From Escherichia coli (GTDB taxonomy: Bacteria; Pseudomonadota; Gammaproteobacteria; Enterobacterales; Enterobacteriaceae), in NCBI RefSeq assembly GCF_003334315.1, contig NZ_QOWR01000052.1: a stretch of DNA of 33,060 nt; one strand, 5' to 3'. The notes beneath the pieces were generated by a model, which made no database searches, had not been told where the DNA came from, and was given only the letters and a program-made list of their open reading frames with translations. Each line of letters opens with the position of its first letter. Within the stretch, counting starts at the first letter, position 1. Positions 646 through 24,944 of this stretch are shown here, one piece after another. A program made the position numbers and the translations under genes.

Positions 646-2097
646 TCATTCACGCCAGAAAGTCGGGGTAAAGAGCACCAGCAATGTAAAGACCTCGAGA
701 CGACCAAACAGCATGTTGGCAATCAGGATCCATTTAGCCACCGGGTTCATACTGGTAAAGTTATCAGCAACCACGCCAAGCCCTGGCCCCAGGTTATTCA
801 ATGTCGCAACAACCGACGCAAAGGCAGAAAAGTCATCCACGCCCGTGGCGATAATCGCCAGCATACTGACAATAAACACCAATGCATAGGCGGAGAAAAA
901 TCCCCAAACGGCTTCGAGGATACGTTCCGGCAGTGCGCGATTCCCCAGCTTAATGCTATAGACGGCGTTCGGATGCACCAGTCGTTTCAGCTCACGGTTC
1001 CCCTGCTTAAACAGCAGCAGGATGCGGATCACCTTCAGGCCACCGCCCGTTGACCCGGCGCAACCGCCGATAAAGGCTGAACATAAAAGCAGTACCGGCA
1101 AAAAGAGCGGCCAGCGGGCAATGCTGTCAGTTGTAAACCCGGCGGTTGTCGCCATCGACACCACCTGGAAAAACGCCTGGTTAATTGTCATCAGCGCCGA
1201 ACTGTAGACATTATGAAACCACAGTACGAGGGTACAAATAACCACCAGCGTAAACTGTACGCCGATAAACATGCGAAATTCCGGATCGCGCCAATAAACC
1301 TTCAGACTACGCCCACTTAACAGTGAAAAGTGCAGACCGTAGTTACAGCCGGAGATCAGCAGGAAGATAGCAATGATAGTGTTAATAGTCGGGCTATCGA
1401 AATAACCGATACTGGCATCATGTGTCGAGAAGCCGCCAATAGCGATAGTCGCAAAGCTATGGCCGATGGCATCAAAGGCATCCATTCCGGCAAACCACAA
1501 CGCCAGCGCACAGGCGACGGTCAGCAAGACATAAATCAACCACAGGGTTTTCGCCGTTTCCGCAATTCGCGGGCGCATTTTGTTATCTTTCAGCGGGCCG
1601 GGCATTTCTGCGCGATAGAGCTGCATCCCACCCACGCCGAGGATAGGCAGTATCGCAACCGCTAACACGATGATCCCCATCCCGCCAAACCATTGCAGCA
1701 TCTGGCGATAAAAGAGGATGGCATGAGGGAGCGAATCCAGCCCCACCAGCGTAGTGGCCCCGGTGGTGGTCAGGCCAGAGAAAGATTCAAAAAACGCATC
1801 GGTAATCGTGAGGTTCGGGCTTTCCGAGAAGATAAAAGGGAGCGCACCGACACTACCCAGCACGGTCCAGAACAGCACCACTATCAGAAACCCCTCACGG
1901 GATTTCAGTTCGCCCTTCTCTTTGCGGTTCGGCCACCACAGCATAGAGCCAATGGCGAGGGCGACAAAAAAGGTCTGGGTAAAAGCGCGGCCCGCTCCAT
2001 CCCGGTAGATGAGTGCTACCAGCCCTGGGATAATCATGGTCCCTGAAAATAAGATGACCAGTAGTCCAACGATTCGGGTAATGGCGCGAAAATGCAT
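646..2097 (-). CDS. trkH: Trk system potassium uptake protein TrkH
   Basis: 483-aa polytopic membrane ORF (MHFRAITRIVGLLVILFSG...) located between yigZ and hemG. Confidence 0.9.
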   Translation of the reverse strand: MHFRAITRIVGLLVILFSGTMIIPGLVALIYRDGAGRAFTQTFFVALAIGSMLWWPNRKEKGELKSREGFLIVVLFWTVLGSVGALPFIFSESPNLTITDAFFESFSGLTTTGATTLVGLDSLPHAILFYRQMLQWFGGMGIIVLAVAILPILGVGGMQLYRAEMPGPLKDNKMRPRIAETAKTLWLIYVLLTVACALALWFAGMDAFDAIGHSFATIAIGGFSTHDASIGYFDSPTINTIIAIFLLISGCNYGLHFSLLSGRSLKVYWRDPEFRMFIGVQFTLVVICTLVLWFHNVYSSALMTINQAFFQVVSMATTAGFTTDSIARWPLFLPVLLLCSAFIGGCAGSTGGGLKVIRILLLFKQGNRELKRLVHPNAVYSIKLGNRALPERILEAVWGFFSAYALVFIVSMLAIIATGVDDFSAFASVVATLNNLGPGLGVVADNFTSMNPVAKWILIANMLFGRLEVFTLLVLFTPTFWRE

Positions 2098-19800: not shown

Positions 19801-19832
19801 CCGGGTGGTATTACCACCCGGTTTGGATTTTA
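19801..19832. terminator. Bidirectional rho-independent terminator shared by convergent ysgA and metE
   Basis: Stem ACCGGGTGG / CCACCCGGT with loop TATT, followed by TTTGGATTTT on the plus strand and CTTTTCTCAT on the minus strand. Confidence 0.7.
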
Positions 19833-22091
19833 CCCCCGACGCAAATTCTGCGCCGCCTGCACCATGTTCGCCAGTGCCGCGCGGGTTTCTGGCCAGCCGC
19901 GCGTTTTCAGGCCACAGTCCGGGTTGACCCACAGGCGCTCTGCCGGAATGCGTTTTGCCGCTTTCTTCAGCAAGGCTTCAATCCATTCCACGCTCGGTAC
20001 GTTTGGCGAGTGAATGTCATAGACGCCAGGACCGATTTCATTTGGATAATCAAACTCTTCAAACGACTCCAGCAACTCCATGTCGGAACGCGAGGTTTCG
20101 ATGGTGATGACGTCTGCGTCCAGCGCCGCAATCGAATCCATGATGTCGTTGAACTCGCAATAACACATGTGAGTGTGGATTTGTGTGTCATCTTTCGCCA
20201 CGGCGGCGTTGATACGGAAGGCCTCTACGCCCCACTGGAGATACGCATCCCAGTCGCTACGACGCAGCGGTAAACCTTCGCGCAGCGCCGGTTCGTCAAT
20301 CTGGATGATGCCAATTCCAGCGGCTTCCAGATCGGCCACTTCATCACGCAGCGCCAGCGCAATCTGTTTGGCGATGGTTTCACGGCTGACATCTTCACGC
20401 GGGAACGACCAGCAGAGTATGGTCACCGGCCCCGTCAGCATCCCTTTCACCGGTTTGTCGGTCAGCGATTGCGCATACTTCGCCCACTCCACGGTAATCG
20501 GTGCCGGGCGGCTAATGTCACCAATGACAATCGGTGGCTTCACGCAGCGGGAACCGTAGCTCTGTACCCAACCGTTTTGCGTAAAGACAAATCCGTCGAG
20601 GTGCTCGCCAAAGTATTCCACCATGTCATTACGCTCGGCCTCGCCATGTACCAGCACATCCAGTCCCAAACGTTCCTGCTCAACAATGGCCTGCTTGATA
20701 TGTTCCGCAATGCCCGTGCGGTAGTTGTTGGCGTCGAGATTGCCCTTTTTGAAATCCAGACGCAGGGTACGAATTTCCGTGGTTTGCGGGAAGGAACCAA
20801 TCGTGGTGGTCGGCCACGCTGGCAGTTTAAAACGCGCACGCTGGGCTTCAGCACGCACTTCATAGACATTCGCACGCTGGCTGTCCTGGGCGGTGATCGC
20901 CGCCAGACGCTTTTCTACCGCCGGATTATGTACGCGGGTAGAGTGACGACGTGCCTGAATCGGGGCGCTCCACTCTGCCAGAGCTGCCGTGTCACCACTG
21001 TTCAGCGCATCGCGCAGCAGTGCCAGTTCATGGCATTTTTGTAGGGCGAAGGCAAACCAGCTTTTCACTTCTGCATCAAGACGCGTTTCCACGCTCAGGT
21101 CGATGGGGCTGTGCAGCAACGAGCAGGAAGATGCCACCCACAAATCACGTTTGCCGACAATGTCCTTAATTTGCGCATATTTCTCGGTAAGATCGGCGCG
21201 CCAGACGTTACGACCATTGATCAGACCCGCAGACAGCAACCAGTCAGAAGGCAGGCGCTTGTGCAGTTCAGCAACGTCATCTTTACCATGTACGAGGTCA
21301 ACATGCAGACCCTGAACAGGCAGCGCAGTAATCGTGTCGAGATTTGGCGTTACGCCTTCAAAATAGGTGGTCAGCAGCAGTTTCACCTGTCCCTGGAGCG
21401 CGTCGTAAGCGGGTTTGTATGCGTCCAGCCACGCCTGTGGTAGTTCCAGTACCAGCGCGGGTTCATCAATCTGTACCCACTCGATGCCGCGTTTCGCCAG
21501 TTCTGCCAGCACTTGCTGATAAACCGGCAGAATGTCGTTCAGCAGGCTCAGGCGGTCAAATTGTTCACCTTTCACTTTCCCCAGCCACAGCCAGGTAACC
21601 GGCCCCAGCAGCACAGGTTTCACCTTGTGGCCCAGCGCCAGCGCCTCGTCCACTTCGTCCAGCAGCTGCGTCCAGGTCAGTTTGAACTGTTGGCCTTTAA
21701 CGAACTCCGGCACCATGTAGTGATAGTTGGTGTTAAACCATTTGGTCATTTCCGCTGCCGCCGCAGGTTCGCCAGTCGGCGCACGTCCACGACCAATACG
21801 GAACAGGGTGTCGATATCTACCGAACCATCTTTGTTCTGATGACGCGCCGGAACGTTACCCAGCAGCAGACTGGTGGTCAGTACATGATCGTACCAGGCA
21901 AAATCGCCCACCGGCAGCAGGTCGATACCCGCTTGCTTTTGTTGATCCCAGTGACGAGCACGCAATTCACGCCCTACCGCCAGCAGTTCTTCACGCGTGG
22001 AGTTCCCCGCCCAATAACTTTCTTGCGCTTTTTTCAGCTCGCGACGCAGGCCAACGCGAGGGAAACCGAGGGTGTGATTCAATATTGTCAT
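19830..22091 (-). CDS. metE: cobalamin-independent methionine synthase MetE
   Basis: 753-aa [51 protein letters not shown]... Confidence 0.95.
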
Positions 22092-22327
22092 TTTTTCTTC
22101 CTCTAATTATATGTAAATCCTATGGATTTTGAATTTAGGGAAGGCGGCAAGTTTATTCATCCCCGGGAGCTTACTGAAGTAAGTGACCGGGGTGGAGAAA
22201 CGCAGCCAACGCACCATAAATTTAAAAGACGAAGGATTTTAGCCGTCCAGATGTTTACACATCCATAATTGGCGGTTACTGTATATTCCTCAAGCGCAAA
22301 TTATTCATGCCGAAGTGAAGGACTTTC
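22092..22327. promoter_or_regulatory. metE-metR divergent control region (promoters plus MetR/MetJ operator sites expected)
   Basis: 236-bp AT-rich intergenic region between divergent metE and metR; contains a TGAA-N5-TTCA motif (22316-22328) and AGACG-like met-box fragments (22226-22250). Individual sites were not resolved. Confidence 0.55.
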
Positions 22328-23281
22328 ATGATCGAAGTAAAACACCTGAAAACGCTACAAGCGTTGCGGAACTGCGGCTCGCTCGCAGCCGCTGCGGCGA
22401 CGTTGCATCAGACGCAATCCGCCCTGTCTCACCAGTTTAGCGATCTGGAACAACGCCTTGGCTTCCGGCTATTTGTGCGTAAGAGCCAGCCGCTACGCTT
22501 TACACCGCAGGGAGAAATCCTGTTGCAACTGGCAAACCAGGTACTGCCGCAAATTAGCCAGGCCCTGCAAGCCTGCAATGAACCGCAGCAGACGCGTCTG
22601 CGCATTGCCATTGAGTGCCATAGCTGTATTCAGTGGCTGACACCCGCGTTAGAAAATTTCCATAAGAACTGGCCGCAGGTAGAGATGGATTTTAAATCGG
22701 GCGTGACATTTGACCCGCAGCCCGCCTTGCAACAGGGAGAGCTGGATCTGGTAATGACGTCCGATATTCTGCCGCGCAGTGGCCTGCATTATTCGCCGAT
22801 GTTCGACTATGAAGTGCGTCTGGTGTTAGCACCTGACCATCCACTGGCGGCGAAAACGCGAATTACACCGGAAGATCTCGCCAGCGAGACGCTATTAATT
22901 TATCCGGTGCAGCGTAGTCGACTGGATGTCTGGCGGCATTTTCTTCAGCCGGCAGGCGTCAGCCCGTCACTGAAAAGCGTCGATAACACCTTATTGTTGA
23001 TTCAGATGGTTGCCGCGCGGATGGGTATTGCCGCGCTACCGCATTGGGTAGTAGAGAGTTTTGAGCGCCAGGGTCTGGTGGTGACCAAAACCCTGGGCGA
23101 AGGCTTGTGGAGCCGACTGTACGCCGCCGTGCGCGATGGCGAGCAGCGTCAGCCAGTTACGGAAGCGTTTATTCGCTCAGCGCGCAATCACGCCTGCGAT
23201 CATCTGCCGTTTGTGAAGAGCGCGGAGCGACCCACTTACGATGCACCCACAGTGAGGCCAGGATCACCAGCGCGCCTGTAA
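22328..23281 (+). CDS. metR: LysR-family transcriptional activator MetR
   Basis: 317-aa [57 protein letters not shown]... with N-terminal HTH. Confidence 0.93.
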
Positions 23282-24143: not shown

Positions 24144-24944
24144 TTACGATAAATAGAGTTTACGCAGATAATGCGGCACCGCGTCGTCGGCATTAGTACC
24201 AATCACTTCCAGCTCGGGATGAAGGTCTTTCAGACGCTGGTGCGCACTGCCCATAATGCAGCCTTTCCCCGCCATCGACAGCATTTCGGCGTCGTTCATC
24301 CCGTCACCAAACGCAATACAATCCTTCAGGCTGTAGCCCAGTTTCTTCGCCACCGCTTCCAGCGCATGGCCTTTTGAAACGCCGCCCGCCATCACTTCCA
24401 GACAGGTTAAGGTAGAGAAACTGACGTTGACGCGATCGCCCCAACGAGCGTTAATCGCCTGCTCCAGCGGCAGCAGTTGTTCATGGGAATCGCAGGTGAA
24501 GAACACTTTGCTGACGCCTTCCGGCTCCAGTAATCCAGGCTCATACAGCGCATATTGGAACACCGCTTCTTTAAAAAAGCGCATCTCTTCCGGGCGATGG
24601 CGATTCATAAACCATTCGTCGTCGCGATAAACGTTAGTAATGATGTCCGGATTGTCGTTGACTACGCCAAACAGATCGCTGGCAATGTCGCGATCCAGGT
24701 TATGAGCAAAAATCAGATTACCATCCAGATCGTGAACGCGCGCACCATTGGAGGTAATCATGTAAGACTTAATCTCCAGATTATCGCGAATTTGCCCCAC
24801 ATCAACGTGGTGACGACCGGTCGCAAACACAAAGTTGATGCCGCGCGCGGTGAGCAGCTTCAGAGTTTCTTTGGCGTAAGGGGATAACGTATGGTCGGGA
24901 GAAAGTAACGTGCCATCTAAATCAGACGCAACAACCTGGTACAT
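24144..24944 (-). CDS. yigL: HAD-family (Cof-type) sugar/pyridoxal phosphate phosphatase YigL
   Basis: ORF MYQVVASDLDGTLLSPDHTLSPYAKETLKLLTARGINFVFATGRHH... (266 aa from ATG 24944) with the DxDGT HAD motif; the six-frame track extends 42 codons upstream into pldB. Confidence 0.9.
   Translation of the reverse strand: MYQVVASDLDGTLLSPDHTLSPYAKETLKLLTARGINFVFATGRHHVDVGQIRDNLEIKSYMITSNGARVHDLDGNLIFAHNLDRDIASDLFGVVNDNPDIITNVYRDDEWFMNRHRPEEMRFFKEAVFQYALYEPGLLEPEGVSKVFFTCDSHEQLLPLEQAINARWGDRVNVSFSTLTCLEVMAGGVSKGHALEAVAKKLGYSLKDCIAFGDGMNDAEMLSMAGKGCIMGSAHQRLKDLHPELEVIGTNADDAVPHYLRKLYLS

What the first reader, a model, noticed from the sequence alone, without database searches (positions are those of the whole stretch)
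22092..22330. metE-metR divergent regulatory region with MetR-like dyad overlapping the metR start
The 236-bp intergenic region should carry the MetR activation site and MetJ met-boxes. One TGAA-N5-TTCA dyad (22316-22328) sits directly on the metR initiation codon, which would be consistent with MetR autorepression, but I could not assign the metE-proximal MetR site or tandem met-boxes with confidence from sequence alone.
Basis: partly seen in the sequence, partly recalled or inferred. Interest (0 to 1): 0.25.

Follow-up and report, generated by a model that had tools for sequence, protein, structure and literature searches.

The report
Known metE–metR control region of E. coli
The palindrome on the metR start codon is real and is the main, already described MetR binding site of E. 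coli, which switches on metE and shuts off metR from one position; it is textbook regulation, not a new feature.

Summary
The window is E. coli chromosome: metE 19830-22091 (-), metR 22328-23281 (+), with 236 bp between them. TGAAGGACTTTCA lies exactly at 22316-22328, and its last A is the A of the metR ATG.

The dyad is not a separate autorepression operator. It is the high-affinity MetR site 1, about -63 from the metE start site and about +32 from the metR start site.

The metE promoter lies beside metR, interleaved back-to-back with the metR promoter. About 125 bp of the metE leader (22108-22236) is an ERIC repeat element.

- A weaker MetR site 2 is at 22294-22308.
- The MetJ operator, three tandem met-boxes, is at 22241-22264. 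It covers the metE start site and the metR -35.

The whole 22238-22330 block is almost invariant in 77 distinct enterobacterial intergenic regions.

The ERIC segment is absent from 3326 of 5426 complete E. coli genomes.

Everything about the regulation is already known, so interest is low.

The parts
19830..22091 (-). metE coding sequence (cobalamin-independent methionine synthase)
   Evidence: ORF; RefSeq annotation of identical DNA
22097..22104 (-). metE Shine-Dalgarno AGAGGAAG, specific to the long (ERIC-bearing) allele
   Evidence: Read. The short allele has a different sequence here.
22108..22236 (-). ERIC/IRU/RU-1 repeat element inside the metE 5' leader (boundaries approximate)
   Evidence: 79/108 identity to the published E. 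coli 127-nt consensus, over 22235..22128. It is self-complementary over 22115-22239. It is absent from 36 of 77 related intergenic regions and from 3326 of 5426 E. coli genomes. It explains the weak Rfam hits Ysr49 and V_AS5.
22241..22264 (.). MetJ operator: three tandem met-boxes AGCCGTCC AGATGTTT ACACATCC
   Evidence: Listed for E. coli K-12 metR/metE in PMC3228920 Table S1: 63 bp from the metR ATG and 149 bp from the metE ATG. It is the best 3-box match of the whole window, 17/24. It is conserved.
22254..22282 (+). metR promoter: -35 TTTACA (22254-22259), 17-bp spacer, -10 TACTGT (22277-22282); start near 22289-22295
   Evidence: Read. The hexamers are conserved. The start site is inferred, not measured.
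22265..22293 (-). metE promoter: -35 TTGAGG (22293-22288), 17-bp spacer, -10 AATTAT (22270-22265); start near 22259
   Evidence: Read and conserved. It agrees with the published positions -63 and -41 of the two MetR sites relative to the metE start site (PMC5002191). Short intergenic regions leave no other room for a promoter.
22294..22308 (.). MetR site 2 (weak, promoter-proximal): GCGCAAATTATTCAT, of which only the TTCAT half matches the consensus
   Evidence: Its centre, 22301, is 21 bp from site 1 and about -41 from the metE start. The TTCAT half is conserved.
22315..22329 (.).
   Evidence: Present in 77 of 77 related regions. Also found in Yersinia, Rahnella, Dickeya and Pectobacterium, with one change, TTCA to CTCA. 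Published as IR1 at -63.
22318..22330 (+). metR Shine-Dalgarno AAGGA (22318-22322) and start codon ATG (22328-22330)
22328..23281 (+). metR coding sequence (LysR-type regulator, 317 aa)
   Evidence: Residues 1-92 match PDB 5FO5, MetR.

Best explanation
The dyad at 22316-22328 is the high-affinity MetR recognition site (site 1) of the shared metE-metR control region. The two promoters are interleaved back-to-back within about 40 bp. The metE start is near 22259, reading leftward, and the metR start is near 22290, reading rightward. Site 1 (centre 22322) and the weaker site 2 (centre 22301) lie 3 and 1 helical turns from the metE -35. Homocysteine-bound MetR at these sites can therefore recruit RNA polymerase to the weak metE promoter. 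The same bound protein lies at about +11 and +32 of the metR transcription unit. There, together with polymerase occupying the overlapping metE promoter, it blocks metR transcription. A single MetJ operator (22241-22264) covers the metE start site and the metR -35 and represses both genes when S-adenosylmethionine is high. What is shown here: the sequences, their positions, their conservation and the promoter geometry. What is taken from the literature: MetR and MetJ binding and the regulatory outcomes. What is inferred: the exact start sites and the steric mechanism of autorepression.
For: - The dyad is exact and rare.
- It is present in 77 of 77 distinct Enterobacteriaceae intergenic regions. 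It is retained at the same place in Yersiniaceae and Pectobacteriaceae.
- PMC5002191 places E. coli IR1 at -63 and IR2 at -41 from the metE start, with consensus ATGAA-N5-TTCAT, and cites DNase I footprints of two tandem MetR sites in Salmonella. With the promoter hexamers read, those numbers map onto 22322 and 22301.
- That paper notes that the E. coli spacing between the two sites is one base shorter than in most species. The alignment reproduces this.
- PMC13393422 states that MetR activates metE while repressing its own gene from overlapping promoters.
- The met-boxes come from PMC3228920 and from an independent scan.
- Intergenic regions of only about 105-120 bp in 36 of 77 Enterobacteriaceae, in 61% of E. 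coli and in other families leave no room for another MetR site.
Against: - The start sites are inferred from hexamers scoring only 8/12 each, which the consensus scan did not flag.
- Conservation of the dyad is confounded by the metR ribosome-binding site and start codon inside it.
- Site 2 matches the consensus in one half only.
- PMC5002191 itself says that two MetR sites have not been shown experimentally in the E. coli region.
Confidence: 0.9

Rival explanations
1. The dyad is an autorepression-only operator, and a separate MetR activation site lies closer to metE.
For: The dyad is 237 bp from the metE ATG and sits on the metR ATG.
Against: No other match to the MetR motif with 2 or fewer mismatches lies in the interval. 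The metE-proximal 125 bp are an ERIC repeat. That repeat is absent from 3326 of 5426 E. coli genomes and from many genera that keep the same conserved block. The published sites are at -63 and -41 of metE.
Confidence: 0.03
2. The palindrome is a by-product of translation signals (Shine-Dalgarno plus ATG) and is not bound by MetR.
For: AAGGA and ATG lie inside the dyad, so part of its conservation is explained by translation.
Against: The TGAA half (22316-22319) lies largely upstream of the Shine-Dalgarno and is invariant as well. The full 13-bp consensus is matched exactly. Its position and helical phasing relative to the metE -35 fit a LysR-type recognition site. Published analyses call it the MetR site.
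Confidence: 0.02
3. The dyad acts in the metR mRNA as a hairpin that hides the ribosome-binding site (translational control), in addition to or instead of acting as a DNA site.
For: The minimum-energy fold of the metR leader pairs the two halves, with the Shine-Dalgarno in the loop and stem.
Against: The energy is -7 kcal/mol and no better than shuffled sequences: z = +0.46, with 128 of 200 shuffles folding at least as well. No compensatory changes occur: the stem never varies within Enterobacteriaceae, and the one change in other families (U to C) weakens a pair.
Confidence: 0.04

Closest known systems
Salmonella typhimurium metE-metR control region (MetR sites 1 and 2; Urbanowski and Stauffer 1989, Wu et al. 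1995, as cited in PMC5002191)
   Same: Divergent genes, overlapping promoters, and two tandem MetR sites upstream of the metE -35, the distal one strong. Shared met-boxes. The sequence from the met-boxes to the metR ATG is nearly identical.
   Different: The Salmonella loci sampled here (subsp. diarizonae and arizonae) carry a different ERIC variant in the metE leader, giving a 248-bp intergenic region. The footprints were done in Salmonella, not in E. coli.
gcvA-gcvB control region (GcvA), the other 'group one' LysR-type system in PMC5002191
   Same: Two inverted repeats near -65 and -43 of the activated promoter. The regulator gene is divergent and is repressed by the same bound protein.
   Different: A different regulator, motif and effector. 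No MetJ-type co-repressor site.
MetJ operators of the met regulon (metA, metBL/metJ, metC, metF, metK)
   Same: Two to five tandem 8-bp repeats resembling AGACGTCT that overlap promoters.
   Different: Here one operator serves two divergent promoters. It scores 21 bits over 3 boxes, compared with 31 bits over 4 boxes at metB/metJ.
ERIC/IRU/RU-1 repeats of enterobacteria
   Same: About 127 bp, an imperfect palindrome with a conserved core, lying in a transcribed intergenic region and variably present.
   Different: The arms diverge from the consensus (73% identity overall). Terminal repeats and a TA duplication could not be identified. The allele without the element also differs in the adjacent metE ribosome-binding region.

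Membership tests
MetR (LysR-type) recognition site | Interrupted palindrome TGAA-N5-TTCA (15-bp form ATGAA-N5-TTCAT), which also satisfies the T-N11-A box of LysR-type sites | tested here: met
   13/13 at 22316-22328 and 14/15 at 22315-22329
MetR (LysR-type) recognition site | Located near -65 of the activated promoter, with a weaker site near -40 next to the -35 | tested here: met
   The centres 22322 and 22301 lie 63 and 42 bp from the inferred metE start at 22259. This agrees with the published -63 and -41. The start site is inferred, not measured.
MetR (LysR-type) recognition site | Lies within the regulator's own divergent promoter or leader, so that binding causes autorepression | tested here: met
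   The sites lie at about +11 and +32 of the inferred metR transcript. Autorepression is stated in PMC13393422.
MetR (LysR-type) recognition site | Conserved in orthologous intergenic regions | tested here: met
   77 of 77 distinct regions, and four further families or genera with one substitution
MetR (LysR-type) recognition site | Physically bound by MetR (footprint, gel shift, ChIP) | not testable with these tools
   The primary papers are not held. Only secondary citation is available.
MetJ operator | At least two tandem 8-bp repeats resembling AGACGTCT | tested here: met
   6/8, 6/8 and 5/8 at 22241-22264, the top score of the window. Listed in PMC3228920.
MetJ operator | Overlaps core promoter elements of the repressed genes | tested here: met
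   It covers the metR -35 (22254-22259) and the inferred metE start near 22259
ERIC/IRU/RU-1 repeat | Imperfect palindrome of about 127 bp with the conserved central core | tested here: met
   Self-complementary over 22115-22239. 79/108 identity to the consensus, with the core nearly intact.
ERIC/IRU/RU-1 repeat | Terminal inverted repeats and a TA target duplication | tested here: inconclusive
   The ends diverge from the consensus, and the element-free allele differs in flanking sequence, so no clean empty site could be defined
ERIC/IRU/RU-1 repeat | Presence or absence differs between strains and species at the same locus | tested here: met
   2100 of 5426 E. coli genomes have it. Among Enterobacteriaceae, 41 regions are long and 36 short.

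The most novel reading that the evidence does not exclude
The ERIC-bearing and ERIC-free metE leaders, which also differ in the metE ribosome-binding region, may be functionally distinct alleles kept side by side in E. coli and other genera. The ERIC arm (CCUUCCCUA) is predicted to pair with the metE Shine-Dalgarno. That would give strains such as this one an added post-transcriptional layer, in translation or mRNA stability, on the most abundant methionine-pathway enzyme.
Probability: 0.15. Interest if true: 0.35.

Novelty: already known. Interest (0 to 1): 0.1.

Why it matters
Little is new here. The result gives a correct coordinate map of a classic dual-control region: one MetR site pair and one MetJ operator serve two interleaved divergent promoters. 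It also corrects the natural but wrong assumption that an activator site must lie near the activated gene's start codon. The practical lesson for annotation is that about half of this 236-bp "regulatory" interval is a mobile repeat, and that most E. coli strains lack it.

Tried and rejected
- **Consensus promoter scan.** It flagged three minus-strand sites and neither real promoter. ATGAAA-18-AATAAT (22329 to 22300) is simply the AT-rich MetR half-sites, and its -10 is not conserved. TTCAAA-16-TATAAT (22133 to 22106) and TTTACA-16-AAAAAT lie in or beside the ERIC element and are absent from the short alleles.
- **Rfam.** Only sub-threshold hits, Ysr49 and V_AS5, at about 27 bits against gathering scores of 95-96. 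They are explained by shared ERIC-like sequence, and no riboswitch was found.
- **RNA hairpin at the metR start.** No better than shuffled sequence.
- **Primary footprint and structure papers.** PMC287278, PMC176813, PMC210406 and PMC4909240 are not held.
- **Genome-wide start-site tables.** One paper is not held. One lists only an internal metE site at +208. The third has nothing at these coordinates in the stored part.
- **Supplements of PMC4239095 and PMC5002191.** They do not list the site sequences.
- **Literature search for ERIC at metE.** Nothing was found in the held library.

Full report
**Identity of the locus.** The 901 bp around the finding are 100% identical to many E. coli chromosomes and are found in all 5426 complete E. 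coli genomes, where RefSeq annotates metE and metR. In the window, metE is 19830..22091 on the minus strand and metR is 22328..23281 on the plus strand. The interval between them, 22092..22327, is 236 bp, as in K-12 MG1655 (K-12 coordinate = 4035144 minus window coordinate). The encoded MetR matches RefSeq MetR proteins throughout Enterobacterales at 86-100% identity. Its first 92 residues match the solved MetR DNA-binding domain, PDB 5FO5.

**The observation.** TGAAGGACTTTCA lies exactly at 22316-22328. Its last base is the A of the metR ATG, and its 5-bp spacer contains the metR Shine-Dalgarno AAGGA.
- Exact matches to TGAA-N5-TTCA occur twice in 33 kb, against 0.63 expected. That is about 0.0045 expected in a 236-bp interval.
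- The longer published motif ATGAA-N5-TTCAT matches at 22315-22329 with one mismatch. No other match with 2 or fewer mismatches lies in the interval.

**Where the promoters are.**
- On the minus strand, TTGAGG (22293-22288), a 17-bp spacer and AATTAT (22270-22265) form a weak promoter that would start metE transcription near 22259. That leaves a leader of about 168 nt.
- On the plus strand, TTTACA (22254-22259), a 17-bp spacer and TACTGT (22277-22282) would start metR near 22289-22295.
- Each promoter matches the consensus at only 8 of 12 positions, so the consensus scan missed both.
- I could not read primary start-site data, so these starts are inferred.

Three independent lines support the placement.
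- A published phylogenetic-footprinting study puts the two E. coli MetR inverted repeats at -63 and -41 from the metE start site. It gives the consensus ATGAA-N5-TTCAT and cites DNase I footprints of two tandem sites in Salmonella (PMC5002191). With a start at 22259-22260, those numbers fall on 22322, the centre of the dyad, and on 22301, the centre of GCGCAAATTATTCAT at 22294-22308.
- The same paper remarks that the E. coli spacing between the repeats is one base shorter than in most species. My alignment shows exactly one extra base at that place in Yersinia, Dickeya and Pectobacterium.
- In many relatives the whole intergenic region is only about 105-120 bp. The metE promoter must then lie within the conserved block next to metR.

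**Comparative evidence.** Eighty loci encoding MetR relatives were fetched from one-genome-per-species Enterobacteriaceae, and 79 gave an intergenic region. With the window they make 77 distinct sequences.
- Positions 22238-22339 are almost invariant, apart from a short stretch at 22270-22277 between the interleaved hexamers.
- All 77 carry an exact TGAA-N5-TTCA ending on the metR ATG: 71 as TGAAGGACTTTCA and 6 as TGAAGGACATTCA.
- The TTCAT half of site 2 is conserved in nearly all; the other half (GCGCA) is invariant but does not match the motif.
- In Yersinia, Rahnella, Dickeya and Pectobacterium the same layout is kept, with one change in the right half-site, TTCA to CTCA.

**MetJ sites.** The supplementary table of the MetJ-regulon study lists three met-boxes for E. 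coli K-12 metR and metE, agccgtcc agatgttt acacatcc. They lie 63 bp from the metR start codon and 149 bp from the metE start codon and score 21.08 bits (PMC3228920). This is window 22241-22264. A simple match count against three copies of AGACGTCT gives 17/24 there, the best score in the whole window. Shuffled windows reach 17 or more 0.13 times on average. The operator covers the metR -35 and the inferred metE start site, so one operator can repress both genes.

**Mechanism.**
- Site 1 (centre 22322) and site 2 (centre 22301) lie 31.5 and 10.5 bp from the centre of the metE -35. They are therefore on the same helical face, at the usual recognition-site and activation-site positions of LysR-type activators.
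- The same sites lie at about +32 and +11 of the metR transcription unit.
- The core promoters overlap in opposite orientation: the metE -35 lies on the metR start, and the metE -10 lies in the metR spacer.
- MetR bound there, and RNA polymerase recruited to the metE promoter, would therefore exclude or block polymerase at the metR promoter.
- The literature states the outcome directly: overlapping promoters, with MetR activating metE while repressing its own gene, and MetJ with S-adenosylmethionine repressing both (PMC13393422; PMC5002191; PMC4239095).
- The steric details are my inference.

**Rivals.**
- A separate metE-proximal MetR site is excluded by the motif scan and by the fact that the metE-proximal DNA is dispensable (see the next section).
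- The idea that the palindrome is only a by-product of translation signals is unlikely. The left half-site lies largely upstream of the Shine-Dalgarno, is equally invariant, and the site is correctly placed and phased relative to the metE promoter.
- An RNA hairpin hiding the metR ribosome-binding site is not supported. The fold is -7 kcal/mol with z = +0.46 against shuffles.

**The rest of the interval is a repeat element.** Intergenic lengths fall into two classes, 114-123 bp (36 sequences) and 186-262 bp (41 sequences).
- The extra DNA in the window, about 22108-22236, is an imperfect palindrome (22115-22239 self-complementary).
- On the metE-sense strand it aligns with the published 127-nt E. 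coli ERIC/RU-1 consensus at 79/108 identity, with the central core nearly intact (PMC2759123 Table 1a).
- The longer (248-bp-type) class, including the two Salmonella subspecies, matches the consensus better, 98/121 for S. diarizonae.
- This explains the two weak Rfam hits, Ysr49 and V_AS5.
- Within E. coli the element is polymorphic. 2100 of 5426 complete genomes carry it at 95% identity or more, 2092 of them at 99% or more. This group includes K-12 and O157:H7 (for K-12).
- The other 3326 genomes have a region 119 bp shorter. They also have a different sequence around the metE ribosome-binding site.
- The regulatory block from the met-boxes to the metR ATG is identical in both alleles.

**Verdict.** It describes a well-characterised control region, however, and the dyad is the known MetR site that serves both activation and autorepression. 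Novelty: already known. Interest: low. The only loose end worth an experiment is whether the ERIC-bearing and ERIC-free metE leaders differ in expression. In the long allele the ERIC arm is predicted to pair with the metE Shine-Dalgarno, but the fold is only modestly better than shuffles (z = -1.82) and the short allele's site is also predicted to be partly paired. I give that idea a low probability.

Noticed in passing
window 22108-22236 (minus strand): An ERIC/IRU repeat sits inside the metE 5' leader. It is present in 2100 of 5426 complete E. coli genomes and absent from the rest. Both states also occur within Citrobacter and Enterobacter and across other genera. The element-free allele also has a different metE ribosome-binding region.
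   Followed up: partly
window 22133-22106 (minus strand): A near-consensus promoter-like site, TTCAAA-16-TATAAT (10/12), lies at the edge of the ERIC element. It would start transcription inside the metE Shine-Dalgarno. It exists only in the long allele.
   Followed up: no
window 22118-22164 paired with 22097-22104 (metE mRNA): In the predicted fold of the long metE leader, the ERIC arm CCUUCCCUA pairs with the metE Shine-Dalgarno (probability unpaired 0.0-0.15 for most bases). The whole-leader fold is -39.6 kcal/mol with z = -1.82.
   Followed up: partly
window 24220-24232: This is the only other exact TGAA-N5-TTCA in the window (TGAAGGTCTTTCA, almost the same spacer). It lies in the 3' end of yigL, 152 bp upstream of the bioP (yigM) start codon. 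The count is within chance expectation for the window.
   Followed up: no
window 23169-23281; also L084-L088: The 3' ends of metR and the convergent bioP/yigM (EamA family) gene overlap by 113 bp. The same 113-bp overlap is called in the Yersinia and Klebsiella loci; in Rahnella, Dickeya and Pectobacterium the called overlap is 95-98 bp.
   Followed up: partly
window 22307-22318: A four-codon frame, ATG CCG AAG TGA, lies in the metR leader between the two MetR sites. It is kept in nearly all Enterobacteriaceae (a few have ACG for the ATG). It lacks a ribosome-binding site and is absent from Yersinia, Dickeya and Pectobacterium, so it is probably a by-product of the half-sites.
   Followed up: partly
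window 690-713: This is the second-best match to three tandem met-boxes in the window (16/24), far from any met gene. It is at the level reached by shuffled sequence.
   Followed up: no
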